UHGV virus genome: UHGV-0246749
Length of the DNA stretch: 19,123 bases
Reading direction: 5' to 3' (one strand)
Source of the DNA: a virus
Below, one piece after another: positions 1 to 14,783 of the stretch (its first letter is position 1; every line of letters starts with the position of its first letter). Position numbers and translations under genes: made by a program. Under the pieces are notes generated by a model. The model searched no databases. It worked only from the letters and a program-made list of their open reading frames with translations, and was not told the origin of the DNA.

Positions 1-9
1 CTGGATTTT

Positions 10-432
10 ATGAATCAGGAAGTAGTCAAAAACGCTAATATGCATCCATCTGGGGTGGGTGTGGGTAGTGACTTTAATCCTGTGTATTCTGGTGACCCTA
101 ATAAACCGAATATGATTAACGAAGGATGGAGTAGAATTTTTAGTTCAATGGGTGAATTGTTTAACAATGCCACAATGAATATTGCAAGATTCAATCATCC
201 AGAATTAATTACCATGAAACAGGATGCATCATTAACGAGCACTGACATCCAAAATCTAAGAGATGAAATTAGTGCTTTGAGTAAGCGTATTCAGGAGCCA
301 GTGAAAGTTTCACTTGGTGGTGAAGTTGCCATTAAACCAGATGAAACCAGCTTTATGACCTTTAGCAGTAGTATCTACGACAAATATTCAGAAACTATGC
401 TACTAAGTTCATCATTCCCAGAAGATGATTGA
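10..432 (+). CDS. Hypothetical protein, AT-rich gene; may be the C-terminal part of a longer ORF since no stop occurs in frame between position 1 and the ATG at 10
   Basis: 140-aa ORF in the six-frame track; no motif recognised; AT-rich by eye like the rest of 1-3000. Confidence 0.4.
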   Translation: MNQEVVKNANMHPSGVGVGSDFNPVYSGDPNKPNMINEGWSRIFSSMGELFNNATMNIARFNHPELITMKQDASLTSTDIQNLRDEISALSKRIQEPVKVSLGGEVAIKPDETSFMTFSSSIYDKYSETMLLSSSFPEDD

Positions 433-588
433 TTTAACGGTGTTCTACGTGAATAAAGCAAAGTTAATACCCGCACTGAAAAATAGAATTTACGTACAAC
501 ACGCTTAACAGAGAAAATACTTATATATCAAAGGCTTGGTTAAAAATGATTAAAATACACTAAGCCTTTGAAATCAAAGGAGAATTTA

Positions 589-1362
589 ATGATTTACACT
601 AATCAGCTTCGTTACACTGGCAAAGATGGCGTTTACTTTCATCTACAAGGCCAGCCAGATAATTTCTTGTCACTATCAGCTACTGAGAACATGGAATTTG
701 ACAGCCCTATGATGGTGACCACTCAAAATATGCAATCAGGGCAGACTGTAACAGATAATGTAATGCGTTCACCAAGAACTATTTCAATTAGTGGTGTGGT
801 TGTGGTTGGTGAATCCGGTAGTACCCTTATCTCACGAGATAATAAGCTGGTGGAGAACTTCATCGACACCCTTGAAACTTGGAGAGACCAGAAACAAATT
901 ATTTCAGTGATTTGTAAAGATGGTATCAAGATTGATGACTCAATTATTACCAACTTTAAAGCCTCTAAAGATGTTACTATCTCTAACGGTCTTAGAATCC
1001 AGCTAACTTTTCAGGAAATTAACTTTAAAGCTATTGTAGGGCAAACTGATATTTCAGCAGCCACTGGCAAAACGGCTACCACAAATGATGGCGGTGCTAC
1101 TTCTAAGAAGAATACTGGCAACACTACGACAAGCTTGGGTAATGGTATGTTGCTGTGTCAGGAGCTATATAATCGCTCTACGAGTGAACTTACTAATGAG
1201 CAACTTCAAGCCCGTATCAATTGTGGTAAAAGTGTCAGAGTTGAGAATGGAAAAAGCACCTTCTCAGATGCCGCTAATGAGCAAGCTTCGAAAGTGCTTA
1301 ATAATGCTGGTGCAGGTAATGTTTTGAAGAGGCTGTCTATTAATCCTAACAAGCGCTACTGA
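589..1362 (+). CDS. Hypothetical Ser/Thr/Asn/Gly-rich protein (cargo of the serine-recombinase element)
   Basis: Track ORF 568-1362; I prefer the ATG at 589, which sits after 'aaaggag' at good spacing. No recognisable domain. Converges on the recombinase gene with a 14-nt gap. Confidence 0.5.
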
Positions 1363-1376
1363 CGATAGAAGCTCAA

Positions 1377-2900
1377 CTATATGATAACCTCATCAACATC
1401 TATCAACCCCCTCTCAGTGACTTCAGAAAGCGACTGTATAGCCTCTGTAACGTCCTCTGAGGGGTTTTCTGTTATTGGTAGGTCAATTAACCTACCGTTG
1501 TGAAAAGTCACTTTACAGCGACGTTTAGCAGTATTTAAAACGACCTCTTTAACAGCACTTCTAATAATCAGTTGTGCTTCAATCCTTCCCGCCTTTGTAG
1601 TCAAGTCACAATCAGACAAACAACCAACATCAATAGATTTAAGGCGTTGTGTCTCCTTCTCGATATCCGCATCAACCTGTGATAGCTCACCTTTTAACTG
1701 CTTTAGTTTGATGGTAATAGCTGACAAATCTTCAATTTCAAGTGATAGCTGTACCAGCTTTTCAATATTGCTTGAGATGTGTTCACGGTGTAGCTTCAAT
1801 GTATCAATGACATTCGTCATATCGCTATCAAATCGGTCAAGACGAGATAGCAGGGTAAGTAATGTACCATCGGTTTGCTTACGTGACAGCCCTTTAGCAC
1901 TACAACGGTTTTCATTACGAAGAGGACAACGATAAATCCCGCTTCTTGTATCGCTAAAGCCTGTGATAATCAGAGCATGACCACATTCAGAACAACGGAT
2001 AACACCTTTAAAGAGATTCACACTCAATGGTTTATCTGAAACAGACCTCTTTCCATAACGAGAATGTGATAGTTGTTGAACTTTGTAGAATGTTGTTTCA
2101 TCTATAATTGCAGGATAATAACCAGATATCTCTTCACAGCCTTTCGGGGTAAAGTATCCAATTACAGAGCGATTCTTCAAAAGGTCTTGCACTGAGGTTT
2201 GACCAAACTTACCCGGCTTGTATTGGTTCATCGACCGGTGACCTTCAGCATTAAGAGTTCTGACAATCTCCCAGATAGACTTACCCTCTAACCGTAGCTG
2301 AAAGCACCTCTTCACAGTTTCTACCTTCTCAGGTATTACAGAGAAGCTTTTACGGTCATCATTAAGCTTAAGCCATGCAGGACAACGTTTAGAAACTTTG
2401 ATACCAGCTTTAGCAGCCTCTTTCTTGGCATCCCATGCAGCCTGTATACGCTCAGCCTTACGTAATGATTCCTCATGCGCCCTTTGCATTATCAAAATGC
2501 TTTTAATCAGAGCTAGCGGGTCTTTAAGAGATTCCTTTGTGTAATGTTCACCATCGGACAGGGTGACTACATCTACACCAGCCCTTAAGATACGGCGTAA
2601 TAGCTCAGAAGCAATATCAATATCCTGACGTGACAAACGGTCTAAACTCTCGATTAGTAGCGTATCACCAGCTTTAACAAGACCTTTCTCGATAGCGGTT
2701 AAGAAGTCACCTAAGCCACCTTTCAAGTGCTTACCAGTGAACCCGCTAACGCCTAAATCACGAAAAGATAAATCTTGGTCAAGGTAGTACTCAGGATGAG
2801 CCTTAAGCCAATCTGTAACCATCTTAGATTGTCTGCGTAGTGAGTCGCCTTTGGCTTGTCGCTCAGAACTGAATCTGATGTAGCTGATTACACGTTTCAT
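1377..2900 (-). CDS. Large serine recombinase (resolvase/invertase-type N-terminal catalytic domain, recombinase domain, zinc ribbon, coiled coil)
   Basis: 507 aa; N-terminal 'VISYIRFSSERQ' fits the catalytic-serine motif of serine recombinases; Cys cluster 'CSECGH...CPLRNENRC' fits the zinc ribbon; ATG at 2900 preceded by GGTGG. AT-rich by eye. Confidence 0.85.
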   Translation of the reverse strand: MKRVISYIRFSSERQAKGDSLRRQSKMVTDWLKAHPEYYLDQDLSFRDLGVSGFTGKHLKGGLGDFLTAIEKGLVKAGDTLLIESLDRLSRQDIDIASELLRRILRAGVDVVTLSDGEHYTKESLKDPLALIKSILIMQRAHEESLRKAERIQAAWDAKKEAAKAGIKVSKRCPAWLKLNDDRKSFSVIPEKVETVKRCFQLRLEGKSIWEIVRTLNAEGHRSMNQYKPGKFGQTSVQDLLKNRSVIGYFTPKGCEEISGYYPAIIDETTFYKVQQLSHSRYGKRSVSDKPLSVNLFKGVIRCSECGHALIITGFSDTRSGIYRCPLRNENRCSAKGLSRKQTDGTLLTLLSRLDRFDSDMTNVIDTLKLHREHISSNIEKLVQLSLEIEDLSAITIKLKQLKGELSQVDADIEKETQRLKSIDVGCLSDCDLTTKAGRIEAQLIIRSAVKEVVLNTAKRRCKVTFHNGRLIDLPITENPSEDVTEAIQSLSEVTERGLIDVDEVII

Positions 2901-3001
2901 TCTTTACCACCATAAAAACTAATAGCAGTTGGGCTTGTTATGAGGATGCTTCATCCGAATCATCTACCAACCCCTAGATTGTATCGCTTTAGGTGGTGTA
3001 T

Positions 3002-3421
3002 TTAAACGTGTCTGATGAAAATCACCCGATTAACGCCGCGCTGATGTAAACCGCGATTAAGCGTTTGTTCCTCTTCCCCTTTGGCGAAAAACTGTGGATG
3101 GCGGACTTCCACACCATAATTAAATTCGCCGGGAAGGGAATCGAGAAAATGCCAAAGCGCAGGCAGATCCCGTGGGCCAAATGTGGCAGGCAGTTGCAGC
3201 CAGTATTGCCCAATGCGCGGCGCTAACGGTGACATGCGGGTCAAAAATTCAGTCACTAAATCATCGCAATGCCGTAATGCTGCCTGATGCGAAATGGTCG
3301 CCGGAAACTTAAAACAGAAGCGAAAATTATCTGTGGTCTGCTCACGCCAGCGCAGGACAACCTCGGATTTCGGCAGGGCGTAAAGCGTGGTGTTGCCCTC
3401 CACACAGTTAACATGACGGGT
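3002..3421 (-). pseudogene. yecE: Internal fragment of a DUF72-family (YecE-like) host gene, apparently truncated at both ends
   Basis: Translation 'VEGNTTLYALPK...FRFCFKFPATISHQ...GVEVRHPQFF' matches the middle of DUF72 proteins as I recall them; similarity seems to continue a few codons upstream of the GTG (HVNCVEG) and then stop near the integrase end; the ORF ends after 'GVNRVI', before the expected C-terminal third. GC content is visibly higher than in flanking DNA. Confidence 0.5.
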
Positions 3422-3445
3422 ATTAAGGATTAACTTACTGATTTT
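3404..3445. other. Approximate attL junction (host DUF72 sequence meets prophage sequence at the integrase stop)
   Basis: Host-like coding similarity is lost within about 30 nt of the integrase stop at 3430; the exact core cannot be set without attR or an empty-site sequence. Confidence 0.3.
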
Positions 3446-4743
3446 AATAAGCCTCTGGTGTCACTTTGGTGACTATGGGGCATCATTGGGACATAATCTG
3501 TCAGCTTCTGATTCAGCATTGCGATCTGTTCTGCATTGCTGTCAGTCATCCATGCTCCGTATACATTGAATACCATCTGGGCACTTGCATGGCCCATCTG
3601 GCTGGCAATGAAGCTTGGGTTTGCTCCGGCAGATAATGACCAGCACGCATAAGTGTGTCGTGACTGGTATGCCTTTCGATGCCTGATCCCTGCACGCTTA
3701 ATGGCTGTTTCCCATGAGTCACCTACAGAATCGACTTTGTAGACAAAACCTACCTGTTCGCTTTTTCTAACCACTTGAGGGTTAAACACGAAAGTACATT
3801 CATGGTTCACTGAACGTCCATATTCACGTAGTTGCACCTTGATGTTGTACTGCTTACCCAGTCTTGTCATTTCAGCCTGATTTTTCAGGACACTGATAGC
3901 GGGCTGGATAAGGTGCACAACCCTGTTTGTGCTTGCTTCAGTTTTCGGTAGAGTGAACTCACCAAGTTTCGTATAATTGCGCCTGATGGTAATTGTTCCT
4001 GCCTTCAGATCGATATCTTCCCAGGCCAGGGAGACCAGTTCACCGTGACGCATTCCTGTGTACACAGCCAATGACCACAGGTTTTTCGTCTGCTGATGTC
4101 GGCAAGCATCTATCAGGCGAATAAATTCGTCACGAGTTAGCGGATCTGGCTCTGCCCTGGCTCTTTTAAGAGGCTTAATTCCCTGGAAGGGATTTGCTTC
4201 TAAGTAACCGTGATCTGCAGCAAACTGAAACATTCCAGCGATTGTCGTCATGTAATAATTTACAGTAACGACGCTCCGTCCTTTTGCTGCTGCTTTGTTT
4301 TTCGTTGAATTCTGATACCCGGTAAGCAAATCTTTCCTGATATACAGCAATTCCTCTTTGGTTACCGATGACACCAGTCTACTGCCTCCAATTTTCGGAA
4401 CCATCGTTCTTGCAACGGATTCATAGCGATTGAATGCATTTGCAGAGATTTCCATTCGTTTCAGATCCAGCCACTTTTCTTCAAGTTCCTTCACCGTAAT
4501 TTCTTTTTTACTTACCCCAAAAGCCTGAAGGTTGGGGGAGTCAGGGAACTGTGCAGCATAATCAAAGCTTCCTGTGCGGATGGCAAAACATACTGATGTC
4601 CGCAGTTCCCCGGCGATCTTCCTGTTCTTGGCAGTGTCAGGGACACCAAGATTTTCCCTGACACGTTTACCTTTAAAATTAAACCAGATGCGTAATGTGC
4701 CGCCGTGGTTTTCGACGCCTGTTGGATATTTGACTTTATCCAT
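3430..4743 (-). CDS. int: Phage tyrosine integrase
   Basis: 437 aa; C-terminal catalytic region contains 'GMRHGEL', 'HRKAYQSRHTYACW' and 'HASAQMVFNVYGAWM', consistent with the R..H-x-x-R..Y active site; sits at the prophage end facing the att junction. Confidence 0.9.
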   Translation of the reverse strand: MDKVKYPTGVENHGGTLRIWFNFKGKRVRENLGVPDTAKNRKIAGELRTSVCFAIRTGSFDYAAQFPDSPNLQAFGVSKKEITVKELEEKWLDLKRMEISANAFNRYESVARTMVPKIGGSRLVSSVTKEELLYIRKDLLTGYQNSTKNKAAAKGRSVVTVNYYMTTIAGMFQFAADHGYLEANPFQGIKPLKRARAEPDPLTRDEFIRLIDACRHQQTKNLWSLAVYTGMRHGELVSLAWEDIDLKAGTITIRRNYTKLGEFTLPKTEASTNRVVHLIQPAISVLKNQAEMTRLGKQYNIKVQLREYGRSVNHECTFVFNPQVVRKSEQVGFVYKVDSVGDSWETAIKRAGIRHRKAYQSRHTYACWSLSAGANPSFIASQMGHASAQMVFNVYGAWMTDSNAEQIAMLNQKLTDYVPMMPHSHQSDTRGLLKSVS

Positions 4744-4798
4744 CGATACCTCCAGACGCCCAAGAGCGATACGAGCTTACATATTTCATGATATTAAA

Positions 4799-5035
4799 TC
4801 ACCTGGGTTGTTTGTTTTTCATTGAGGCGACCCAGGCATCTATTGCTTTTCTGTTATACATACATTCACTGGAAGGCTTTGGATTACCGTCTGGTGATAC
4901 GTGAATATACTCTCTTCCAACCATCCAGCATTCTTTCCGGGCCCGAAGAATTGTGCCTGGTTTGAGCCCGGTAATTGCGATAAGAACGCTTTCACAAACC
5001 CATTCATTGGGAGCCAGTTGAATCACATTGCCCAT
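4799..5035 (-). CDS. xis: Putative excisionase / recombination directionality factor
   Basis: 78-aa ORF immediately upstream of int on the same strand; the sequence resembles enterobacterial prophage excisionase-like proteins as I remember them; position is typical. Confidence 0.55.
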   Translation of the reverse strand: MGNVIQLAPNEWVCESVLIAITGLKPGTILRARKECWMVGREYIHVSPDGNPKPSSECMYNRKAIDAWVASMKNKQPR

Positions 5036-5043
5036 GTATTACC

Positions 5044-5190
5044 TCACACAACACTCAGCCCACGGCAGTGGCAACACACTTCAAACATTCGCTTCACAAC
5101 TTCACGACAGTAGAAGCCGTCAACATCTCGCGTCAGGTCATAGCGATTGCCGTAACGCTGGTGGACCCATCGTTCAAATGCTTTATTCAT
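5044..5190 (-). CDS. Small Cys-rich protein (48 aa), not in the ORF track
   Basis: My own translation: MNKAFERWVHQRYGNRYDLTRDVDGFYCREVVKRMFEVCCHCRGLSVV; ATG preceded by AGGAAG; start lies 1 nt after the upstream gene's stop, and its own stop is 8 nt from the xis start. Confidence 0.4.
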   Translation of the reverse strand: MNKAFERWVHQRYGNRYDLTRDVDGFYCREVVKRMFEVCCHCRGLSVV

Positions 5191-5193
5191 TCT

Positions 5194-5472
5194 TTACTTC
5201 CTTTTTATGGCTCGTAATTTTTTCAGGTGCTTTTCCTGCTCAGTGTCCGCGAGAATTTTGCGGTACTCCTGGTGGTCAATATGTTCGAACAGGCAGTTTA
5301 ACTCACCAATGCGTACCCGCCCTGATCGTCCGTCCATCCGTCGAAAGAACACTGAGTGCTCAGTGATGCGAGTAATCACCACGGGGTATCCGGCTCTGTC
5401 CGTGTATATCTGACCGCGTTGAATCAAAGCGAACATGTGGTTATCCCCATCGACAAATCGAGAACACAACAA
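5194..5472 (-). CDS. Hypothetical phage protein; start uncertain (track start is TTG, an internal ATG lies at 5436)
   Basis: 92-aa track ORF; no ATG upstream in frame (I traced back to a stop). Confidence 0.4.
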   Translation of the reverse strand: MLCSRFVDGDNHMFALIQRGQIYTDRAGYPVVITRITEHSVFFRRMDGRSGRVRIGELNCLFEHIDHQEYRKILADTEQEKHLKKLRAIKRK

Positions 5473-5520
5473 ACGCTGCTGCGAAGACCACCCCCAGAGT
5501 TACGATTGCATCAGGCCAGC

Positions 5521-6033
5521 TCATTGATTCACCTCCTGCCTGTCGTCCGGCATTCGCTCACTACAGCTTATCCAACCATCCGGAGTTACCGGAGAGCTGG
5601 TTGACGCTTCCGGGATTTTCCGAAAATTATTGGTTGACGAATCTTTATTTTCCCGAAAGTTTCCGGACTGAAGCATGGCTTCGCGGCAATCGTTCCAGCC
5701 TGTAGCGTATGCAGCCGCTTTGCTGCTGCCTTCAACTGGCGCATCCTGCCAATACATTTCTTCCGGCACTATCGGCGCTGGAGGGGCGGCAAATAGATAT
5801 CCGCCAAAGTCAGGAAGCTCTCTAATGGCCTGTACGAATTTTTGTTTGCCTACGTCAACTCCTAATGGGTAATGAGCTATAATCTTTGCCACCGGCTCTG
5901 CTGCCAGTGATGCCAGCGCAATCCGTGCCAGCTCTTCCGCTTCTTCTGCTGGAAGCACAACGTTGCTACCCGGTCCGTATGTTTCGCGCCACTGCTTGAT
6001 TGTCAGCAGTCGCTCTTTGGTTATAGTGGTCAT
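5521..6033 (-). CDS. Phage protein with DUF551-like C-terminal motif, possibly truncated
   Basis: 170 aa ending '...DGWISCSERMPDDRQEVNQ'; the 'W-I-x-C-x-E-R-x-P' pattern fits the start of DUF551 domains, but the ORF stops about 12 residues later. Confidence 0.55.
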   Translation of the reverse strand: MTTITKERLLTIKQWRETYGPGSNVVLPAEEAEELARIALASLAAEPVAKIIAHYPLGVDVGKQKFVQAIRELPDFGGYLFAAPPAPIVPEEMYWQDAPVEGSSKAAAYATGWNDCREAMLQSGNFRENKDSSTNNFRKIPEASTSSPVTPDGWISCSERMPDDRQEVNQ

Positions 6034-6043
6034 GTGTTACTCC

Positions 6044-6307
6044 TTAACCCGCAGTGCTTTCAACTGATGAGGGGAACAAAATCTTTTCATCAAACCCTGC
6101 ATTCATATCATGGACAGCAACACACCAATCCATCGACGAACGATTATCAAGAGCCTCCATGATTTCATCCATGCGGCGTAGGTCATACAGGTAAATGGTT
6201 TTATCGCCAATGGTGTAAAAACCAATTTTTTTTGGTGATGGACAGCGATCAAGAACGTCCTGTAATTCATTCAACCATGCCCGTTCTTTTTTTGTTAAAG
6301 TGGCCAT
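6044..6307 (-). CDS. Hypothetical phage early protein
   Basis: 87-aa ORF with ATG start, tightly packed between neighbours on the same strand. Confidence 0.5.
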   Translation of the reverse strand: MATLTKKERAWLNELQDVLDRCPSPKKIGFYTIGDKTIYLYDLRRMDEIMEALDNRSSMDWCVAVHDMNAGFDEKILFPSSVESTAG

Positions 6308-6308
6308 A

Positions 6309-6845
6309 TCACTCTCCTTTGATACGAATGTCAGCGACGCGTAATGCGTGTTCTAGGTCAATCAGGTAAAGCCAACTGCCATTTTCTTTAGGTATCATGA
6401 CTTGTCGCTCATCTGCATTTATCGGGTGTCCATATCGAAGGTCGTAGCGAGTCGGTAATTGAACTTCCCGCGCTTCCAGTTCAGCAATACGCTTGCACCC
6501 ATCAGAGATAACTCCCTCGTAATACTCGCGCTGCTCGTTGAGTTTTGATTTTGCTGCTTCAAGCTCAACGCGCAGCTTCCCAACCGTAAGCGCAATATCC
6601 TCGTTCTCCTGGTCGCGGCGTTTGATGTATTGCTGGTTTCTTTCCCGTTCATCCAGTAGTGCCAGCACGGTTTCTGGTCCGGTCAGAAATTTGAAGGCAT
6701 TGAGCGCATCAATATCCACACCGTAATCTTTAAGTTCCTGTTCACTTAACAAATCATCATCAGCTGGCAACATTAACAGGCGTTCCATTGCTGGAATTGC
6801 ACGTTCCGCCACCTCACGCAGTGACTGGTAATTAATTTCGCTCAC
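6309..6845 (-). CDS. Ea22-like protein (paralog 1)
   Basis: 178 aa; N-terminus 'MSEINYQSLREVAERA' matches the conserved N-terminus of the neighbouring paralog; GTG start overlaps the upstream stop as GTGA. Confidence 0.6.
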   Translation of the reverse strand: MSEINYQSLREVAERAIPAMERLLMLPADDDLLSEQELKDYGVDIDALNAFKFLTGPETVLALLDERERNQQYIKRRDQENEDIALTVGKLRVELEAAKSKLNEQREYYEGVISDGCKRIAELEAREVQLPTRYDLRYGHPINADERQVMIPKENGSWLYLIDLEHALRVADIRIKGE

Positions 6846-7528
6846 TGGTTGCCTCCTTTGCGAAGCTGGGCAGCAAAGTCAACTAACCACTCAGTCATTT
6901 CAACCTTCCCTACCAGGTCTGAACCAGGGTGCATACAGCAATCACTCTGCGCCGCTTTGAAATCCTTATACTCATATTCTTGGGCCACCAGATTTTTTGC
7001 AGCTTCTATAGCAGCATCCACCCCCTGCGCCCGGACTTCAGCCAGGAAAGCATCAGTGGTTGGCGTTTCAGGTATCTGTCTCCTCATCCGTTCTATTGCA
7101 TGATTGAACCCGAAGTCTTCCGCGAGAGATACGTCATCCATATTGTCATTGTCATCCTCAATATCCCGTGATTCTGGAATTGCAGACTTTATTCCCGCAT
7201 TCTCCGCTGTCAGCGCCGCGCACTTGGCCTCAAGAGCGGCAACCACTTCCTGATGGTCTTTGTACTTAACGTATGAGCCGGAGATGTCATCACCTTCGGT
7301 GTTTAGCCATGCGTCATTGCAATTCACTGCGTAGGTTCTGATGCTCATGTTGATGCTCTCCCGCCCCTGACAGACGCCAGGCCAGTCAATAAAGTATCCG
7401 CAATGCCTACCCTCAGACGTGCGCGCAGGATAAATGCCGTTATGACCCGGCAAAATATATGCTACCCATTCATCTTGCGTTGCCTGTTCCGCCGCCTCGC
7501 GCAGTGCCTGATAGTCAATCTTGCTCAC
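6842..7528 (-). CDS. Ea22-like protein (paralog 2)
   Basis: 228 aa; N-terminus 'MSKIDYQALREAAEQA'; GTG start; acidic stretch and coiled-coil-like segment. Confidence 0.6.
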   Translation of the reverse strand: MSKIDYQALREAAEQATQDEWVAYILPGHNGIYPARTSEGRHCGYFIDWPGVCQGRESINMSIRTYAVNCNDAWLNTEGDDISGSYVKYKDHQEVVAALEAKCAALTAENAGIKSAIPESRDIEDDNDNMDDVSLAEDFGFNHAIERMRRQIPETPTTDAFLAEVRAQGVDAAIEAAKNLVAQEYEYKDFKAAQSDCCMHPGSDLVGKVEMTEWLVDFAAQLRKGGNQ

Positions 7529-7853
7529 TGGCAGCCTCCTTTGCCGGGATTTCTAACTTTTGAGTGGTTGTATCAAATTCAAACAACTTAACCACGTCAT
7601 CAAACAGGACATAATCACCATCAGGATCTTCAGTCATATCTGCGCCACAATCCTGACCGCACGAGTCGCAACCATCCATATCAAGCTCGTATCGCTTCAG
7701 GTTTGCGATATTTGATAAATTCAGCGCCAGTACAGCCAGGTCATAAACCTCTTCGGCAGTGACATCGCTGTTCAGTCCCATTTCATGGCGATATATGATT
7801 TTTTCTACTCGTTGTTTTGTGATCGTCATTTTTCTCTTCACTCCGATATACAA
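7515..7853 (-). CDS. Hypothetical phage protein, start uncertain (TTG at 7853; ATG at 7829 after GGAG; ATG at 7781 one nt after the upstream stop)
   Basis: 112-aa track ORF; acidic Cys-containing C-terminal half; the choice of start changes the overlap with the upstream gene. Confidence 0.45.
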   Translation of the reverse strand: MYIGVKRKMTITKQRVEKIIYRHEMGLNSDVTAEEVYDLAVLALNLSNIANLKRYELDMDGCDSCGQDCGADMTEDPDGDYVLFDDVVKLFEFDTTTQKLEIPAKEAASEQD

Positions 7854-8100
7854 GGATTACTACACCCCCTCTGCTGATTGCGCGAGCTGGATCCCCTGGT
7901 TCCATGCCGTCAATTCCGAAGGCTTCGGAAAACGCATTCATTGCCTTCTGGCGTTCATCCTGCTTACGGCGTTTATTCCATTTTTTCAGGAACAACAGCG
8001 ACAGCCACCGTCCGCTGCAGAACACGATGTAAAAATAACCAAGGAGCGCCAGGCCGACATTCAGGGCCGTTTCTATGGTTAGTTGTGAGTCAGTTGCCAT
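7783..8100 (-). CDS. Small putative membrane protein (one hydrophobic helix followed by a basic stretch)
   Basis: N-terminal 'LNVGLALLGYFYIVFCSGRWLSLLFL' is hydrophobic, followed by 'KKWNKRRKQDERQK'; ATG start at 8100. Confidence 0.45.
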   Translation of the reverse strand: MATDSQLTIETALNVGLALLGYFYIVFCSGRWLSLLFLKKWNKRRKQDERQKAMNAFSEAFGIDGMEPGDPARAISRGGVVILVYRSEEKNDDHKTTSRKNHISP

Positions 8101-8338
8101 TTCTTACCTGTTTAAGTAACTGGTTGAACATAACACTTAGGGGATTGCTGTATCCAAACGGCAGATTGTTTACGCAGTACAGAATCGTTTTGTTTTTTTC
8201 TCCAGTTCGTACTATTAACCCATTCCACAATAACCGTGATAATTCATTACTGATAGAAGTTGCGCTTCTTCCAAGTGCGAGGGATATATCTTCTCTACTG
8301 CAATCTGGATTTTCCTGGATATACTCGATAACGGTCAT
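8090..8338 (-). CDS. Small protein with possible winged-helix fold
   Basis: Track ORF 8090-8380; I prefer the ATG at 8338 (MTVIEYIQ...), preceded by AAGGGA and clear of the upstream gene. Confidence 0.45.
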   Translation of the reverse strand: MTVIEYIQENPDCSREDISLALGRSATSISNELSRLLWNGLIVRTGEKNKTILYCVNNLPFGYSNPLSVMFNQLLKQVRNGN

Positions 8339-8348
8339 GTGGTCCCTT

Positions 8349-8930
8349 TTACTTAATATCTGTTTCGGATTGCATGCCATGAGTATTCATTTCGTTAATA
8401 ATTTCATCCAGAAGGATTTCAAGCCCTTCTCGACCCATATCTGAAAGAATGAAACCTTTATCAGGGGAAGTAGTGAGCATTTTCTGATAAAGAAACAGCG
8501 CTCTTCCCATTCCTTCAGCTTCGCCGTATTTTTGAATTAAATTCCATTCAATATACTGTTGTAAGGCAAATCGAATGGGGCCGGGATATATCGTCATAAA
8601 CCCATACATCCCGTTATATACCACGGCGTGTTCAATTGTTCCGTGTTCATTCAGGATATCAATTGTGCCGTTCTTGTCTTCTTCTTCGTTGATGAATGTC
8701 GTCACATACAACCATCGCCACTGAGCAACCTTCATCTCAACCGGAAGTTTACCCAGTAATCCTGCTTCGTCGGCTTGCGCCAGACACTGAAGGATACGTA
8801 AACCTCGCACATTAGGAGTATCGAATTCTCCGGCATCCAGACGACGTATGGCGTCGTGATAATCAATCGTCATACTGCCAGTTCGTATACCATTGGCTGT
8901 TGCTTCAGCCTGGAATTCATCGTATTGCAT
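8349..8930 (-). CDS. Hypothetical protein, 193 aa, no recognised domain
   Basis: ATG start; translationally coupled to the upstream 60-aa gene (its stop TAA lies within the GAGGAA ribosome-binding region). Confidence 0.6.
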   Translation of the reverse strand: MQYDEFQAEATANGIRTGSMTIDYHDAIRRLDAGEFDTPNVRGLRILQCLAQADEAGLLGKLPVEMKVAQWRWLYVTTFINEEEDKNGTIDILNEHGTIEHAVVYNGMYGFMTIYPGPIRFALQQYIEWNLIQKYGEAEGMGRALFLYQKMLTTSPDKGFILSDMGREGLEILLDEIINEMNTHGMQSETDIK

Positions 8931-8935
8931 GATAT

Positions 8936-9118
8936 TTATTCCTCATCTTCATCTGCTGGTGCAATAACGTCATATCCTGCCCTTTCTGCAATAAACAGGA
9001 ATGTTGAAAGAGTTCCTACAAGTTCATCGTCATGAACATGGCGAATGAATATTACTTTCCCGTTTTTGATGGTCAGCAATATTCTGGTTTGTTCGTGTTC
9101 TGCTGTTTTCTGATGCAT
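8936..9118 (-). CDS. Hypothetical small protein, 60 aa, acidic C-terminal tail
   Basis: ATG preceded by GGGAG; ends 'APADEDEE'; 5-nt gap to the next gene. Confidence 0.5.
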   Translation of the reverse strand: MHQKTAEHEQTRILLTIKNGKVIFIRHVHDDELVGTLSTFLFIAERAGYDVIAPADEDEE

Positions 9119-9120
9119 TA

Positions 9121-9234
9121 TTATCTCCCGTATGCTTTACGCAGAAATAAGCAGGCAATATGCATGTAATTTTCACCGTATTGTGCAATAAGGCAGGCGG
9201 TCTTGTGTGATGCCATATTCTTTATAAAAGTCAC
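9121..9234 (-). CDS. Possible small ORF (37 aa), not in the ORF track
   Basis: My own translation: (GTG)TFIKNMASHKTACLIAQYGENYMHIACLFLRKAYGR; AGGAGG lies 7 nt before the GTG; its stop is 2 nt before the 60-aa gene start. Could be non-coding leader instead. Confidence 0.25.
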   Translation of the reverse strand: MTFIKNMASHKTACLIAQYGENYMHIACLFLRKAYGR

Positions 9235-9312
9235 AATAAAGCCTCCTGTGGTTTAAGGTTGTAACAATCCCCGGCGATAAAACCGCAATAAACGTTCAGG
9301 GCATATTTGTTG

Positions 9313-9678
9313 TTATTGCGCTAATTCTTTTTCGGCAGCAGCTTTTGTATACTCACATGCAAAACTCAGAATTTCGCTGCCGAGTGTTTTCGTTTCGTGA
9401 TTACTGGACATATGTAATACCTGTGTTGCATGCAATAAATGATAAACATTTACCGCAAATGAATCAGGCTCCAGGCAAATGCCTTCGTAATTATCTTGCT
9501 GTGAGGTTGTTTCTGTCATTGCTCCTGAAGTGCATACGAGCCTGTTTTTGACAATTCTCTTTTCTCTAATCACTATATCGGCAACATCTATTGCCTTTAC
9601 AACCTCCGGGAGAAGTTCCGGGTTTGTATAATCAAAGTCATCAACATGGAGAACAGTTATGTTTTCGAACTTTTTCAT
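9313..9678 (-). CDS. Hypothetical protein, 121 aa, AT-rich gene
   Basis: ATG preceded by GAGGA at 5-nt spacing; flanked by AT-rich intergenic DNA on both sides; no recognised domain. Confidence 0.55.
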   Translation of the reverse strand: MKKFENITVLHVDDFDYTNPELLPEVVKAIDVADIVIREKRIVKNRLVCTSGAMTETTSQQDNYEGICLEPDSFAVNVYHLLHATQVLHMSSNHETKTLGSEILSFACEYTKAAAEKELAQ

Positions 9679-9806
9679 GGTTTCCTCAGCTGACTTATAT
9701 GTTCTGCTATATAGCGAGTCTCAGAAGTGTTTTCATATTGAGACTGTTTCCGCAATGATTGATAAAAATGTTCGCATGTACCTTGAGGGGCGAAGCGGCG
9801 ATTATG

Positions 9807-10310
9807 TCACCATTGGTATTGGTTCTTCCGTAGAAGAGCTTCGCGAGATAAGGGGCAAACTTGTTGAGATGCGTCATGGTGTTGCTGCTCCTCACTTTTT
9901 GGTTGCTCCGGAGGAGTAACCTCACCAGTTAACAGCCACATCGGATCGCAGCCAAGAATATTTGCCAGTGGGATAAGCATACTGATAGTTGGTTCATACT
10001 CTCCGCTCTCCCACTGGATGATAATTTCTTCATCGAGATCGAGCAGCCTGGCGAGTTCGGCGGTTGTTAAGCCGCAGGCTTCGCGTTGGGTGCAAAGACG
10101 GTTGTTGATTGCAGAATTTTTGTTCTGTAAAAGCATTGCTGACGATAGCTTTCTGGATATGCTATTTGTCATATCCCATGCCAGTCCTGCGCATGACTCT
10201 ATATCGCTAGAGAGCGTAGCATCAGGTGTTGCTTTTGCTATTAGTGTAATGAGGCTGCCGAGGTTTTTCAGTTCTTCGAGACAGTCAAGAGTTGTAGCTT
10301 TATTGATCAT
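9807..10310 (-). CDS. HTH (XRE-type) DNA-binding protein with a 58-aa N-terminal extension; first gene downstream of the putative pL
   Basis: 'CGLTTAELARLLDLDEEIIIQWESGEYEPTISMLIPLANILGCDPMWLLTG' is a classic XRE-family helix-turn-helix; ATG at 10310 preceded by GAGG; an internal ATG at 10136 would give an N-terminal HTH instead. Confidence 0.6.
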   Translation of the reverse strand: MINKATTLDCLEELKNLGSLITLIAKATPDATLSSDIESCAGLAWDMTNSISRKLSSAMLLQNKNSAINNRLCTQREACGLTTAELARLLDLDEEIIIQWESGEYEPTISMLIPLANILGCDPMWLLTGEVTPPEQPKSEEQQHHDASQQVCPLSREALLRKNQYQW

Positions 10311-10413
10311 GAGATGATACCTCAGTTACGAACTTTGTTTTATGGTAACTAAGGTATCAAGGTGTGGCAAGTGATTTTTGATACTTTGGTTTCTTTTTGT
10401 GTTTTGTGTCTGG
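10311..10413 (-). promoter_or_regulatory. Putative OL/pL region: two copies of the operator 12-mer plus a leftward promoter
   Basis: 'ttgatactttgg' at 10378-10389 and its near-reverse-complement 'ctaaggtatcaa' at 10349-10360; on the minus strand -35 TTGCCA (10365-10370), 17-nt spacer, -10 TACCAT (10342-10347). Confidence 0.45.
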
Positions 10414-11070
10414 TCAGAAAATATCCCACCTGGCATCAACCACAACACCTACTATTTCGCAATCATTGTCCATTTCTATGATTGGATATTGTGGATTAAG
10501 GGGCTTTAGAAACGCCTTTCCCATGTCAGAAATATATTTTTTGAATGTTGCTTCATTGGTAGATTTTTTTCTGGCGATGACGTAACACCCTGAAAAAACT
10601 TCTTTATCTGGGTTGACAAGGATCGACATTCCTTCAGGAAATGTTATTCCTACGGGCGAAGTCATTGAGTCTCCGTGCACTTCCAGCCAGAACCCCCTCT
10701 CACCAGCGTATTTTACAGAATGCCTCCAATTATCCTGATCATACATGTTGTAGTCATCACCAGAAGTTGCGAATAATCCTGCCTGAACCCAGTTAATTAC
10801 AGGGTAAGAGTGTGCTGTGTCTCTCTGTGGGCAGCTCTTAACATTATTTTCCCAATGCTTATCTTTTTCATCTCCGTTCTGAAGCCACTGCGGTGAACAC
10901 CGCAGTGCAGCTGCAACTTTAAAAAGGGTGTCACCGTTGAAACTTTTTGTAAGGCCTTGCTCGGCTTTACTTATTGCAACTCTGGTGACCCCAGCTTTTT
11001 TAGCCAACGCATCTTGTGTTAACCCAGCTTTTTGCCGTGCGTTGATGAGACGTTCACCTAAAGACTTCAT
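10414..11070 (-). CDS. cI: CI-type prophage repressor (N-terminal HTH, C-terminal LexA/S24 peptidase-like domain)
   Basis: Track ORF extends to 11145, but the ATG at 11070 (MKSLGERL...) follows AGGAG. N-terminal HTH 'LTQDALAKKAGVTRVAISKAEQG'; C-terminal 'HGDSMTSP' and 'ARKK' fit the S24 Ser/Lys dyad; 'VQAGLF' contains a possible Ala-Gly autocleavage site. Confidence 0.85.
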   Translation of the reverse strand: MKSLGERLINARQKAGLTQDALAKKAGVTRVAISKAEQGLTKSFNGDTLFKVAAALRCSPQWLQNGDEKDKHWENNVKSCPQRDTAHSYPVINWVQAGLFATSGDDYNMYDQDNWRHSVKYAGERGFWLEVHGDSMTSPVGITFPEGMSILVNPDKEVFSGCYVIARKKSTNEATFKKYISDMGKAFLKPLNPQYPIIEMDNDCEIVGVVVDARWDIF

Positions 11071-11181
11071 TTTTCTTCTCCTCTCATGGCTGTTGATACT
11101 AAAGTAACAGAATTTCTTGATACTTTGGGTTCCTGTGGTTAACATCGTTGGATAACAAAGTATCTGGCGTGAGACTAAAGA
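11071..11181. promoter_or_regulatory. Putative OR/pR/pRM region: three copies of the operator 12-mer and a rightward promoter
   Basis: 'ttgatactaaag' at 11093-11104, 'ttgatactttgg' at 11117-11128, reverse copy 'caaagtatct' at 11156-11165; rightward -35 TTGATA (11117-11122), 17-nt spacer, -10 TAACAT (11140-11145). Confidence 0.5.
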
Positions 11182-11409
11182 ATGACCCTTTATGAAATAT
11201 TAAAAATTCAATTTAAAACCAATGCCGCTATTGGTCGCAGGTTCCCAAAGAAAGGAAGGCCTCGTGGCAGTCAAGGTGTTGGAAAGTGGAAAACGCGAGG
11301 TGTTCCGGAGGATGTTGCCATTCTTTGTCATCTGGATCCGAGCATTCCATATACACACCCAAGTCTAGCGAATACAGAAGATGACAAGCCCACAGGAGAC
11401 CAACAATGA
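11182..11409 (+). CDS. Possible small basic protein in the Cro position; could be non-coding leader
   Basis: 75-aa ORF rich in K/R/G with no HTH I can recognise; weak ribosome-binding site; stop overlaps the next ATG. Confidence 0.3.
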   Translation: MTLYEILKIQFKTNAAIGRRFPKKGRPRGSQGVGKWKTRGVPEDVAILCHLDPSIPYTHPSLANTEDDKPTGDQQ

Positions 11410-12113
11410 ACACCGCAATTTTTAACGGCAAAGCATCCATGACCAGCGTTGAGATCGCAGAGTTGGTGGGAAGCCGACCAGATAGTGTTAAGAGAACTAT
11501 TGAAACACTGGCTAAAAAGGGAATCATCCAATTTCCACAGACTGTGGAAATTGAGAATAAACAATCACTTGGGCCTCGCCGATTTTCTAGCGCGTATGTA
11601 TTCGAAGGTGAACGAGGTAAGCGCGACAGCATCATTGTCGTCGCACAGCTCTGTCCTGAATTCACAGCTTGCCTGGTAGATCGCTGGCGCGAACTGGAAG
11701 AACAGATCCGTAAGCCAATGAGCGAAATCGAAATGGTTGCCGCGATGGCTCTTGAAGCCGTTCGCCAACAGAAACGGATCACTCAGGTGGAAGAAAAAGT
11801 CAGCCACGTTGCTGAAACAGTCGAGCAAATTAAAAAGGGCACTATTCGTGAGGGCTATGCCGGATATCGCCAACTGAAAGCAAAAACCGGTTTGTCAGAT
11901 GATAAATGCCGCAATCTGGTGAACGCCTATCAAATTCCTACAGACACACATGAGTTCATGACGCCGGACGGATTGTTGTCACGTCGCGCAATTGTTGCTG
12001 TGGAACCGTTTATGGCTGCTTTTTATCGGGTTATGGAGGAAGCAGAACCGCGAGGGACTCGCTGGTATCACCCGAAAATGGGGTTATTTCAGGTTATTGG
12101 TTGGCAGCGATGA
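11406..12113 (+). CDS. Rha-like / antirepressor-like DNA-binding regulator
   Basis: 235 aa; ATG preceded by AGGAG; N-terminal 'MTSVEIAELVGSRPDSVKRTIETLAKKG' parallels the N-terminal region of the Rha protein at 12526. Confidence 0.55.
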   Translation: MNTAIFNGKASMTSVEIAELVGSRPDSVKRTIETLAKKGIIQFPQTVEIENKQSLGPRRFSSAYVFEGERGKRDSIIVVAQLCPEFTACLVDRWRELEEQIRKPMSEIEMVAAMALEAVRQQKRITQVEEKVSHVAETVEQIKKGTIREGYAGYRQLKAKTGLSDDKCRNLVNAYQIPTDTHEFMTPDGLLSRRAIVAVEPFMAAFYRVMEEAEPRGTRWYHPKMGLFQVIGWQR

Positions 12114-12136
12114 AAAAAAGCCGGGAGTAACCCGGC
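12113..12136 (-). terminator. Intrinsic terminator oriented for leftward transcription
   Basis: Seven A's (12113-12119) then stem gccggg / cccggc with loop agtaa (12120-12136); on the minus strand this is a hairpin followed by a U-tract. No T-tract follows on the plus strand. Confidence 0.4.
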
Positions 12137-12332
12137 TCACTCAACATCAATAACGGGGAGCTGTTTCGCATAAAACGGCTCCGAAACATCCAAGAACAGT
12201 TCTAAAGATATCAGCAGCTATATGATCATTTCAAGACCAAATATTGATTCTGCAATTCCGGGACGTTACACTGCTCAGGCACCTTATAAAGCGGGTGCCG
12301 GGCGTGGAAACCCGAAATTCAATATAGAGCAC

Positions 12333-12354
12333 AACCGCGCTCATGCGGTTTTTT
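12333..12354 (+). terminator. Weak candidate rightward terminator (tR1-like position)
   Basis: 'aaccgc gctcat gcggtt' followed by T's to 12354; short GC stem, so low confidence. Confidence 0.3.
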
Positions 12355-12525
12355 CGTGTCATGAGCATCGTTACGCCCAAATTATGGTGGGGCGTGCAGG
12401 GCCAACTTCGGTTGGGCCGGGTTCTATGTTGACCGGTATTTCCACCCCTGTACGTCTCACCACCTATATGGTCGTGGAAAGCCTTGGTGGTGAGTTCATT
12501 GAATTCAACATAGGGGCTGTCACCA

Positions 12526-13076
12526 TGACTACTCTCCCAACCCAATCTCACCCTGAAATCACGATTATCAATGGTCGCGTTGTCACCACATCTCTTGCAG
12601 TAGCTAATTACTTTACTAAACGGCATGAGCGGGTTTTAGATAGAATTAGAAACCTCGAATGTTCCGCTGAATTTACTGAACACAATTTTGTGTTAAGTGA
12701 ATACACCGACGCATCAGGCCGCAAACTACCTTGCTATCAAATCACCCGCGATGGCTTCGCGTTCCTTGCCATGGGCTTCACTGGTAAACGTGCTGCCCGG
12801 TTCAAAGAGGCATACATCAACGCCTTTAACCTGATGGAGAAGAGTTTATCAGGTGCCGATGCGTCTGATATGTCAGCTGTCGCACGAAACGCCAGAGGCG
12901 TATACCTGCATTTGCGTGAAATCCATCAAATCTGGACAAGCCAGCTTTATCCAATGCTTAAGGCCGTTGAATCTCCGCTGGCTAGCAAACTGTACGACCG
13001 TGTTGGTGATGCTGTTTTTGGCGCTGCACTTGTTGATTCCAGGCTGAATGGTTCTGACAAGGAGGTTCGCCCATGA
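12526..13076 (+). CDS. Phage regulatory protein Rha
   Basis: 'ITIINGRVVTTSLAVANYFTKRHERVLDRIRNL...ITRDGFAFLAMGFTGKRAARFKEAYINAFNLMEK' matches the Rha family as I recall it. Track ORF starts at 12222, but the upstream 101 codons look non-coding; I take the ATG at 12526. Confidence 0.7.
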
Positions 13077-14773: not shown

Positions 14774-14783
14774 GGTGACAGCG

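What the first reader, a model, noticed from the sequence alone, without database searches (positions are those of the whole stretch)
1..2900. AT-rich serine-recombinase element with unrecognised cargo and a hairpin over the cargo gene start region
Two forward genes with no recognisable domains converge on a large serine recombinase, all visibly more AT-rich than the rest of the window, which suggests a distinct foreign element extending leftward out of view. A 9-bp inverted repeat (caaaggctt at 529-537, aagcctttg at 562-570) sits just upstream of the 589 start next to a TATATA box, and 2905-2997 holds a partial inverted repeat (accacc / ggtggt) that could be part of the recombinase attachment site.
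Basis: partly seen in the sequence, partly recalled or inferred. Interest (0 to 1): 0.5.

Follow-up and report, generated by a model that had tools for sequence, protein, structure and literature searches.

The report
Satellite-like island carrying virulent-phage tail genes
Bases 1-3024 are the right end of an ~11.4-kb mobile island inserted in the E. coli gene yecE that carries its own copies of two tail genes of strictly lytic Felix-O1-type phages, which makes it a likely, so far undescribed, parasite ("satellite") of those phages.

Summary
The described features are present, but the cargo is not unrecognisable. Bases 1-432 encode the C-terminal end of a tape measure protein (TMP). Bases 589-1362 encode a tail-tube initiator (TI) matching the solved Bas63 (Felixounavirus) gp018 at E=4e-112. 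Bases 1377-2900 encode an intact large serine recombinase (LSR).

The element ends at 3017-3024, not 2900. attR has a 7-bp core, AAAATCA, inside yecE. Related genomes show an ~11.4-kb element with TMP, TI, LSR, a replication-initiator-like gene and small unknown genes, but no capsid, packaging or lysis genes. Versions with unrelated LSRs sit at other chromosomal sites.

Its GC content (39%) equals that of Felixounavirus. Non-coding patches copy phage intergenic DNA. The TI core has recombined repeatedly with the phages, while its C-terminal extension is element-specific. One metagenome contig is the whole element with the predicted attP and no host flank.

Best reading: a PLE-like satellite of virulent Felixounavirus that builds chimeric tails or poisons phage tails. 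This is inferred, not shown. The 529-570 hairpin is real and nearly invariant, but its function is unresolved. I found no paper describing such elements.

The parts
1..432 (+). [quoted passage not shown]
   Evidence: The frame is open from base 1. It is 93% identical to residues 580-722 of the 722-aa TMP of L001, which carries PF20155 TMP_3 (1e-23) and phrog_4036 (1e-95) and matches Bas63 gp017 in PDB 9ndy_F at 2e-73. The terminal motif LLSSSFPED is shared with the phage TMP tip. No phage record matches window 1-600 at the DNA level.
433..588 (+). The AGGAG ribosome-binding site is at 577-581.
   Evidence: In Felixounavirus the TMP and TI genes abut (TAATG), so the spacer is an insertion relative to the phage. 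The last ~100 nt are nearly invariant in 9 distinct copies, loop included. For the first repeat the arms are kept while the loop exists in two unrelated versions. Fold z = -3.95. No Rfam match and no sigma-70 or terminator consensus. Function unresolved.
589..1362 (+). Tail-tube initiator (TI, Dit-like 'baseplate protein'), 257 aa. It has a phage-like core (about aa 1-190) and an element-specific C-terminal extension (about aa 190-257).
   Evidence: PF21821 at 1e-18. PDB 9ndy_A, Bas63 gp018 tube initiator, at E=4e-112. About 79-83% nucleotide identity to 160+ Felixounavirus records over 618-1147 only. No phage match for 1150-1400. Mosaic pattern shown.
1377..2900 (-). Large serine recombinase (integrase), 507 aa, intact.
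   Evidence: Resolvase (1e-21), Recombinase (1e-15) and Zn_ribbon_recom (5e-7). The N-terminal motif YIRFSSERQ is present. It is 93-95% identical to the LSRs of other yecE-inserted copies and 34-38% identical to the LSRs of family members at other sites. The nearest phage relative is the YbcK-type LSR of lambdoid phages, at 35%.
2901..3017 (-). Region upstream of the recombinase gene plus the element-derived (P) arm of attR. It holds the GGTGG Shine-Dalgarno (2906-2911 on the + strand), a sigma-70-like TTTAAA-17-TACAAT (3006-2978) and the inverted-repeat arm tGGTGTATTTA (2994-3004).
   Evidence: Sequence, promoter scan and junction alignment. In L001/L002 the arm TAGTGTATTTA has a perfect 11-bp inverted partner TAAATACACTA at the other end of the element.
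3018..3024 (.). Crossover core AAAATCA, shared by attB, attP, attL and attR. This is the right boundary of the element.
   Evidence: K-12 yecE aligns to the left junction up to this block and to the right junction from this block, giving a 7-bp overlap. The sequences are shown. The core lies at the symmetry centre of attP.
3025..3411 (-). Host DNA: an internal fragment of yecE (DUF72). It is cut on the left by this element and on the right by a second prophage.
   Evidence: 96.7% identical to K-12 yecE. PF01904 DUF72 at 7e-31. Relatives annotate 'DUF72, incomplete' on both sides of the element.

Best explanation
Window 1-3024 is the right end of an ~11.4-kb integrative element inserted into the host gene yecE by its own large serine recombinase. 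It comprises the TMP C-terminus, a regulatory spacer, the tube-initiator gene, the integrase gene and attR.

The element belongs to a family found in E. coli, Shigella, E. albertii and Citrobacter. Members carry private versions of two tail-assembly proteins of strictly virulent Felixounavirus (Felix-O1-like) myophages: the tape measure and the tube initiator that seeds the tail tube on the baseplate hub. They carry no capsid, packaging, sheath, tube, fibre or lysis genes.

Most likely it is a phage satellite that works like the Vibrio cholerae PLEs:
- It sits silently in yecE.
- On infection by a Felixounavirus it is switched on through regulatory DNA copied from the phage.
- It excises through LSR-mediated attL x attR recombination to an 11.4-kb circle and replicates.
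- It then substitutes its own TMP and TI into phage-made tails, giving chimeric tails, and/or blocks the phage's own tail assembly, so that it spreads at the phage's expense.

Shown:
- Gene identities.
- The att sites, and the existence of the attP (excised-type) junction on a contig made only of element DNA.
- The family structure.
- Sequence ties to the phage.

Inferred: induction by the phage, packaging, chimeric tails and interference.
For: Anatomy:
- TI matches Bas63 gp018 at E=4e-112 and TMP matches Bas63 gp017 at 2e-73. Their order is the same as in the phage.
- In the Bas63 virion, the TI hexamer adapts the hub to the tube and the TMP tip contacts the hub (PMC12609058).
- The LSR is intact.

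att sites:
- A 7-bp core and a perfect 11-bp inverted repeat in the reconstructed attP.
- The same attP occurs naturally inside an 11,473-bp metagenome contig. That contig is the whole element, circularly permuted, with no yecE flank and with intact genes.

Size and content:
- About 11.4 kb in L001 and L002.
- Contents: Dam methylase, an HTH_36 replication-initiator-like protein, small unknown proteins, TMP, TI and LSR. No other virion genes.

Family:
- The same core (about 92-106 aa, 107 aa, ~234 aa, ~69 aa, TMP, TI) is linked to LSRs of only 34-38% identity at mdtG-lpxL and lafU-dinB, and in Citrobacter.
- 462 of 5426 complete E. coli genomes have a match.

Ties to virulent Felixounavirus:
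- GC is 39.2% in the element and 39.1% in phage bumzen, against 52% in the host.
- Only TMP and TI have phage protein homologues.
- About 130 nt upstream of the element's first operon is homologous to a divergent intergenic region of 253 Felixounavirus-type records, in the same orientation as upstream of Felix O1 ORF84. Other non-coding patches match other phage intergenic regions.
- The TI core of some copies is 88-93% identical to the phage but only 76-80% identical to other copies. The C-terminal extension falls into three element-only types. This indicates repeated recombination with the phage.
- The phage genome has no annotated integrase.

Precedent: PLEs have an LSR integrase and a virulent myovirus helper. 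They encode TAC, TMP and a baseplate hub protein, and build chimeric tails (PMC12987554).
Against: - There is no experimental link to any phage. Induction, replication, packaging and transfer are all inferred.
- No packaging function, capsid-size-redirecting protein, recombination directionality factor or tail assembly chaperone could be identified. The conserved small proteins have no Pfam, PHROG or PADLOC hit. The AlphaFold model of the 234-aa core protein was too poor to use (pLDDT 56).
- An 11.4-kb genome in an ~87-kb-genome capsid would need size redirection or multimer packaging. Nothing here addresses that.
- Several copies are decaying: TMP has an internal stop in L012, and IS elements interrupt L007, L010 and L011.
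- The attP contig could in principle come from a tandem integrated dimer, and the nature of the sample is unknown.
- IMG/VR held no attP form.
- Only the right 3 kb of this particular copy is visible. Its best relative is 90% identical, so its left half is unknown.
Confidence: 0.6

Rival explanations
1. A defence island rather than a satellite. The element's TMP and TI act as dominant-negative decoy subunits that co-assemble with Felixounavirus tail parts and abort tail assembly. The island moves only by other routes and is not packaged by the phage.
For: - Tail assembly is a known defence target, as with the Tai systems (PMC11364771) and PLE11 Rta (PMC12987554).
- The TI keeps a phage-like core but carries a foreign C-terminal extension. 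The equivalent ~100-aa extension in Bas63 threads through the baseplate. This is what a poison subunit would look like.
- TMPs are hypervariable among copies, at 31-93% amino-acid identity, as expected in an arms race.
- No packaging or capsid function was found.
Against: - The element has a replication-initiator-like gene, phage-like regulatory DNA, an intact LSR and a natural attP form. A static defence locus does not need these.
- The conserved TMP N-terminus and hub-binding tip fit a working tape measure.
- No PADLOC hit.
- In PLE, defence and satellite transfer coexist, so the two readings are not exclusive.
Confidence: 0.2
2. A decayed remnant of a once complete temperate phage related to Felixounavirus. 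The TMP and TI genes are leftovers without current function.
For: Some copies carry stops or IS insertions. Prophage remnants next to integrases are common, and yecE is a known prophage site (PMC3603311).
Against: - The same ~11.4-kb organisation, with intact genes and exact att sites, recurs at three or more chromosomal sites with unrelated LSRs and in several genera.
- An intact copy exists in the attP form.
- No phage record among 50,697 matches the element's 5.6-kb core, its TI 3' end or its TMP 3' end.
- Felixounavirus has no annotated integrase.
- The TMP-TI spacer is more conserved than the flanking coding DNA.
Confidence: 0.07
3. One reading: a serine-recombinase island with novel, domain-less cargo genes and a regulatory hairpin over the cargo gene start.
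For: The LSR, the AT-richness and the hairpin are real. The 140-aa fragment alone has no Pfam hit.
Against: Both 'cargo' genes are identified phage tail genes. The hairpin ends 17 nt before the ATG and does not cover the ribosome-binding site.
Confidence: 0.03

Closest known systems
[quoted passage not shown]
   Same: - A small island integrated by a large serine recombinase.
- The partner phage is a strictly virulent myovirus, inferred here from homology.
- The element has its own replication initiator.
- It carries a partial tail-assembly module centred on its own TMP. PLE has TAC, TMP and BhuB and builds chimeric tails (PMC12987554).
   Different: - Different host genera and a different helper lineage.
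- No sequence homology to PLE genes was seen. PLE sequences were not compared directly, and the LSR search of phage records returned no Vibrio hits among the listed groups.
- The second tail gene here is the tube initiator, not the baseplate hub.
- TI and non-coding DNA are 80-93% identical to the phage, whereas PLE tail proteins are 20-41% identical to ICP1's.
- The element is smaller (11.4 kb against about 18 kb; the PLE size is from my own knowledge).
- Nothing has been shown experimentally.
Felixounavirus Bas63 gp017 (TMP) and gp018 (tube initiator), PDB 9ndy
   Same: Direct homologues, at E=2e-73 and 4e-112. They have the same gene order, the same TI tube-like core and the same TMP N-terminus and C-terminal tip.
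   Different: - They sit in a bacterial chromosome next to an integrase.
- A 156-nt conserved spacer is inserted between the two genes.
- The TI C-terminal ~70 aa and the TMP C-terminal ~140 aa are unrelated at the DNA level to any phage record.
cf-PICIs, PICIs and P4-like satellites of Enterobacteria
   Same: Small chromosomal islands in E. coli that depend on phage virion parts. Some cf-PICIs carry putative tmp genes (PMC12987554, Extended Data Fig. 10).
   Different: Those use tyrosine integrases and temperate helpers, and they encode capsid and packaging genes (cf-PICI), or terS/pri-rep (PICI), or sid/psu/alpha (P4). These features are from my own knowledge. None of them was found here.
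Tail-assembly-interference defences (Tai systems, PLE11 Rta)
   Same: They target phage tail assembly from a mobile element.
   Different: Those are small inhibitor proteins, not homologues of the tail proteins themselves. There is no PADLOC hit here.
YbcK-type large serine recombinases of lambdoid coliphages
   Same: The same three-domain LSR architecture. These are the nearest phage relatives.
   Different: Only 35% identity, with a different attachment site (yecE core AAAATCA).

Membership tests
Large serine recombinase (serine integrase) | N-terminal resolvase-type catalytic domain with a serine nucleophile, followed by a recombinase domain and a zinc-ribbon domain. | tested here: met
   PF00239 (1e-21), PF07508 (1e-15) and PF13408 (5e-7) occur in order over residues 4-349. 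The N-terminal motif YIRFSSERQ is present.
Large serine recombinase (serine integrase) | A simple ~50-bp attP with inverted-repeat arms around a short core that is the only identity with attB. Integration creates hybrid attL and attR. | tested here: met
   The core AAAATCA is shared. attP has perfect 11-bp arms (TAGTGTATTTA / TAAATACACTA) symmetric about the core. attL and attR are exact hybrids of attP and K-12 attB. The natural attP is in L023.
Large serine recombinase (serine integrase) | Excision requires a recombination directionality factor. | not testable with these tools
   No candidate could be recognised. In PLE the factor is supplied by the phage (own knowledge; Seed laboratory work).
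Phage satellite (general) | A small integrated element lacking most virion and lysis genes, so that it cannot form particles alone. | tested here: met
   The element is 11.4 kb. Only TMP and TI are virion genes. There are no capsid, portal, terminase, sheath, tube, fibre or lysis hits in Pfam or PHROGs. This was tested on relatives L001 and L002; the left half of the window's own copy is not visible.
Phage satellite (general) | Precise excision to a circular form. | tested here: met
   The metagenome contig L023 is the whole element, permuted, with attP inside and no host flank. A tandem integrated dimer is not formally excluded.
Phage satellite (general) | Specific molecular ties to a helper phage. 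| tested here: met
   TMP and TI homology, matching GC content, phage-derived non-coding DNA and a mosaic TI that indicates recombination with Felixounavirus.
Phage satellite (general) | Helper-dependent induction, packaging and transfer, with interference against the helper. | not testable with these tools
   This needs infection experiments.
PLE family (Vibrio cholerae) | Homology to PLE core genes (RepA, TcaP, NixI, LidI and others), with ICP1 as helper. | not tested
   No PLE sequence was available for comparison. Host and inferred helper differ, so the element is not filed as a PLE. It is described only as working like one.
PICI / cf-PICI / P4-like satellites | Tyrosine integrase, plus alpA and pri-rep with terS or a capsid module (PICI, cf-PICI), or sid/psu/delta/alpha (P4). 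| tested here: not met
   The integrase is a serine recombinase. No such domains appeared in Pfam or PHROG scans of all element proteins.
Complete temperate prophage | A full virion, lysis and lysogeny gene set, typically 30-60 kb. | tested here: not met
   There are 11.4 kb between attL and attR in L001 and L002.
Felixounavirus tube initiator (Dit-like) | Sequence homology across the tube-like core, with the gene immediately downstream of the TMP gene. | tested here: met
   PDB 9ndy_A matches residues 5-256 at E=4e-112. Synteny is shown. The C-terminal extension is not conserved.

The most novel reading that the evidence does not exclude
This is the visible end of the first described satellite family that parasitises strictly virulent Felix-O1-like phages in E. 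coli, Shigella and Citrobacter. It would be an enterobacterial counterpart of Vibrio PLEs. It listens to the phage through copied regulatory DNA, excises with a swappable large serine recombinase, and re-tools the phage tail with its own tape measure and a tube initiator that carries a private baseplate-spanning extension. It keeps pace with the phage by repeatedly recombining the tube-initiator core.
Probability: 0.5. Interest if true: 0.85.

Novelty: new variant of a known kind. Interest (0 to 1): 0.7.

Why it matters
Well-studied E. coli satellites (P4, PICIs, cf-PICIs) exploit temperate helpers. The only well-studied satellite of a virulent phage is PLE/ICP1 in Vibrio cholerae (own knowledge).

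An equivalent system in E. coli would matter for four reasons:
- Its helper genus is easy to grow, structurally solved (Bas63) and widely used for Salmonella and E. coli biocontrol and typing. That would give a tractable model for how satellites hijack or sabotage tail assembly.
- It would be a natural experiment on which parts of TMP and tube initiator must match the phage and which can be private.
- It may explain strain-specific resistance to Felixounavirus cocktails. About 8% of complete E. coli genomes carry related sequence.
- The family offers several new LSR/att pairs (yecE, mdtG-lpxL, lafU-dinB) for genome engineering.

Tried and rejected
- Rfam scans of window 1-3500 and of a whole element (L008) gave no match at E<=1.
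- PADLOC on ten small element proteins gave nothing.
- phmmer of all small element proteins against all ORFs of phage bumzen gave nothing below E~0.002. The tail-assembly-chaperone idea for the 102- and 69-aa genes upstream of TMP is therefore unsupported.
- AlphaFold on the conserved 234-aa protein with a 14-sequence alignment gave pLDDT 56 and all long helices. That is too poor for a fold search, so none was run.
- I looked for a shared late-promoter motif between the TATATA box and the upstream regions of Felixounavirus late genes and found none.
- I looked for iterons in the 1.1-kb left non-coding region and found only weak, scattered repeats.
- ~11-kb assembly contigs carrying the 234-aa protein were checked for circularity. 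L017 has host flanks and no terminal overlap, and L020 is integrated in yecE.
- The attP pattern was not found in IMG/VR. The hairpin pattern in IMG/VR hit only contigs whose IMG identifiers look like isolate genomes rather than viromes (my reading of the identifiers).
- Eight literature searches for a Felixounavirus or Ounavirinae satellite, or for an E. coli PLE-like element, found no description. Absence from this library is not proof of novelty.
- The idea that the neighbouring lambdoid prophage is the helper was considered and rejected. The element occurs without it (L002), and the tail genes are of Felix type.
Full report
**What is in the window**

The first 3 kb hold three reading frames: 10-432 (+), 589-1362 (+) and 1377-2900 (-). 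The last is an intact 507-aa large serine recombinase (LSR) with Resolvase, Recombinase and Zn_ribbon_recom domains.

The region is 40.1% GC. The adjacent host fragment is 51.8% and the rest of the window 48%.

To the right lie a 394-bp internal piece of the host gene yecE (DUF72; 96.7% identical to K-12) and then a separate lambdoid prophage. That prophage begins with a tyrosine integrase at 3430-4743 and fills the rest of the window.

**The two 'cargo' genes are phage tail genes**

- The frame of the first ORF is open from base 1. It is the last 143 codons of a tape measure protein (TMP) and is 93% identical to the C-terminus of the 722-aa TMP of a related E. coli element. That TMP carries PF20155 and phrog_4036, and matches the TMP gp017 of Felixounavirus Bas63 in PDB 9ndy at 2e-73.
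- The 257-aa protein has a Dit_like domain. It matches the Bas63 tube initiator gp018 (9ndy_A) at E=4e-112 over its whole length.
- In the Bas63 virion the tube initiator (TI) forms the hexamer that adapts the three-fold baseplate hub to the six-fold tail tube. It sends a ~100-residue C-terminal extension through the baseplate. The TMP tip contacts the hub (PMC12609058).
- In Felixounavirus genomes the two genes are adjacent and in the same order.

**Boundaries and attachment site**

Aligning empty K-12 yecE with the junctions in the window and in two related genomes shows that host sequence resumes at 3018. Left and right junctions overlap by 7 bp, AAAATCA.

Joining the element-side halves gives attP: TAGTGTATTTA-aacgtgtctaat-AAAAATCA-tcaaggtc-TAAATACACTA. 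It has perfect 11-bp inverted arms symmetric about the core, which is the standard design of a serine-integrase site.

In the window the attR element arm is tGGTGTATTTA at 2994-3004 and the core is at 3018-3024.

Its supposed partner accacc is the GGTGG ribosome-binding site of the recombinase on the minus strand. A sigma-70-like TTTAAA-17-TACAAT for the recombinase overlaps the arm. That is a consensus match only.

**The whole element, seen in relatives**

In E. coli 2011C-4315 and PS3Tanimalfeces2 the DNA between the two yecE halves is 11.43 and 11.42 kb. From left to right it holds:
- a 1.1-kb non-coding region;
- a Dam-type methylase;
- an HTH_36 protein that hits phage replication-initiator families;
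- seven small proteins without any family match;
- TMP, TI and LSR.

There are no capsid, portal, terminase, sheath, tube, fibre or lysis genes. The second strain lacks the lambdoid prophage, so the two elements are independent.

This is a family:
- The same core (about 92-106 aa, 107 aa, ~234 aa, ~69 aa, TMP, TI) occurs between mdtG and lpxL and between lafU and dinB, and in Citrobacter, E. albertii and Shigella.
- These copies are joined to LSRs only 34-38% identical to the window's.
- There are two alternative left halves.
- 462 of 5426 complete E. coli genomes have a match to window 1-3017, and 153 cover at least 80% of it. The best match is 90% identical.
- Some copies are decaying through stops or IS insertions.

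**Ties to strictly virulent Felixounavirus**

1. Element GC is 39.2% and phage bumzen GC is 39.1%.
2. Only TMP and TI have protein homologues in the phage. The phage has no annotated integrase.
3. About 130 nt just upstream of the element's first operon is homologous to non-coding DNA in 253 Felixounavirus-type records, at 81-88% identity. In Felix O1 this DNA lies in a divergent intergenic region, ~140 nt upstream of ORF84 and in the same orientation. The homology includes a palindromic GATATC hairpin and a TTGTCA -35-like box. Other elements carry patches of other phage intergenic regions.
4. The TI gene is a mosaic:
   - Over the core (nt 60-570), some element copies are 88-93% identical to the phage but only 76-80% identical to the window's copy.
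   - The last ~240 nt fall into three element-only types, each about 45-54% identical to the phage. The copies used were confirmed to be elements.
   - No phage record matches the window's TI 3' end, its TMP 3' end plus spacer, or a relative's 5.6-kb core.
   - The simplest reading is repeated recombination between elements and infecting phages, with retention of a private C-terminal extension.

**Evidence for excision**

A pattern that spans the predicted attP cannot exist in the integrated state. It found one public metagenome contig, ERZ1090866 NODE_760 (11,473 bp, coverage 6). The contig has these properties:
- It is the entire element, circularly permuted.
- attP lies in its interior and is identical to the reconstruction.
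- It has no yecE sequence and its genes are intact.
- Its two ends map about 4 nt apart on the element. One end carries 43 nt of Nextera adapter.

The LSR system therefore appears active in nature. A tandem chromosomal dimer is a less likely alternative. I could not determine the nature of the sample.

**The hairpin**

The TMP-TI spacer (433-588) is absent from the phage, where the two genes overlap at TAATG.

The region folds with z = -3.95. A bare 9-bp repeat would turn up in 28% of shuffles.

In nine distinct copies the last ~100 nt, loop included, are almost invariant, although the flanking genes differ by 10-25%. There is no covariation. One copy breaks a pair, and the Citrobacter copy lacks the hairpin.

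A second repeat (446-454 / 488-496) keeps its arms while its loop exists in two unrelated versions.

The hairpin ends 17 nt before the ATG and leaves AGGAG free. No sigma-70 promoter, terminator or Rfam family fits.

It is a conserved, sequence-specific regulatory insertion of unknown mode. Candidate modes are an operator, an RNA processing or stability element, or a phage-type promoter.

**Interpretation**

An island that cannot make a virion, yet carries exactly the tape measure and the tube-seeding protein of a virulent phage, must act on that phage's tails. It also carries a replication initiator, phage-copied regulatory DNA and a working integrase.

The closest known system is PLE of Vibrio cholerae. 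PLE is integrated by an LSR and parasitises the virulent myophage ICP1. It was recently shown to encode its own chaperone, TMP and baseplate hub protein, and to build chimeric tails. The same paper noted putative tmp genes in other putative satellites (PMC12987554).

I therefore favour a PLE-like satellite of Felixounavirus (about 0.6 overall). The main rival is a decoy-based tail-poisoning defence island (0.2). The two are not exclusive. A prophage remnant is unlikely (0.07).

It is not a PLE, PICI, cf-PICI or P4 by gene content. I found no paper describing Felixounavirus satellites in the held library.

**Limits**

- Only the right 3 kb of this copy is visible.
- All functional steps beyond integration and excision are inferred.
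- No packaging, size-redirection, chaperone or directionality factor was identified.

Noticed in passing
window 3412-19123: A second, independent lambdoid prophage is inserted in the same host gene yecE, only 394 bp from the first element. It carries a tyrosine integrase (3430-4743), a DUF1233 excisionase, Ea22-like genes, an S24 cI-type repressor, Rha/Ash regulators and (by analogy with the relative L001) a DnaB-type helicase. yecE is therefore split into three pieces by two mobile elements that use different att sites.
   Followed up: partly
L008 5583-5664; L012 4310-4372; phage bumzen (L005) 36097-36183: A hairpin (GTGGAT-N6-ATCCAC) followed by about 12 tandem pentamers of the form NNACC lies in a phage intergenic region between the DNA ligase gene and gene 43. 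The same design, with different individual pentamers, occurs in the unannotated 2-2.5-kb gap of 'type B' elements. The period-5 pattern is conserved but the sequence is not. This could be a binding array for a ring-shaped protein or an origin. Unexplained.
   Followed up: partly
L001 12462-12630 (also L002, L007); Felix O1 L021 1455-1640: The region upstream of the element's Dam/Rep operon copies a Felixounavirus divergent intergenic region. The palindromic stem is shifted by one pair between phage (AGATATC / GATATCT) and element (GATATCC / GGATATC), so the hairpin is preserved. The motif TTAAGATAAAAGAT recurs upstream of phage gene 51.
   Followed up: partly
L023 (ERZ1090866 NODE_760), whole contig: An 11,473-bp metagenome contig is the complete element in attP (excised or concatemeric) form. 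One end still carries 43 nt of Nextera adapter. I could not determine whether the sample is a virome or whether Felixounavirus is present in it.
   Followed up: partly
L001 18264-20432, L008 10947-13037, L014, L016, L020 (TMP genes): The TMPs of different element copies are extremely diverse: 31-93% amino-acid identity over the C-terminal part and 33-89% overall. The adjacent TI core stays at 75% or more. TMP type and TI C-terminal type do not co-vary.
   Followed up: partly
L002 11740-12309; L007 2442-2993; L008 4601-5143; L010 444-1013; L023 2000-2575: Many copies carry an additional small serine recombinase (183-191 aa, resolvase/invertase size) near the left end, in either orientation. Its target is unknown.
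   Followed up: no
L001 15150-15218: A near-consensus sigma-70 promoter (TTGACA-17-TAAGAT) lies in front of the conserved ~96-aa gene, which looks ribbon-helix-helix-like by eye. This protein is a candidate for the element's constitutive repressor.
   Followed up: no
L001 18185-18225: An intrinsic-terminator-like hairpin (GGGGAG...CTCCCC followed by TTTTT) sits immediately upstream of the element's TMP gene. It mirrors a terminator upstream of the chaperone-TMP block in the phage (bumzen, about 18050-18090).
   Followed up: no
L022 (MT836130.1, 12,681 bp 'Bacteriophage sp.' from human faeces): An unannotated 12.7-kb virome scaffold has a terminal LSR 29% identical to the window's. Its size and layout are reminiscent of these elements, but it was not examined.
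   Followed up: no
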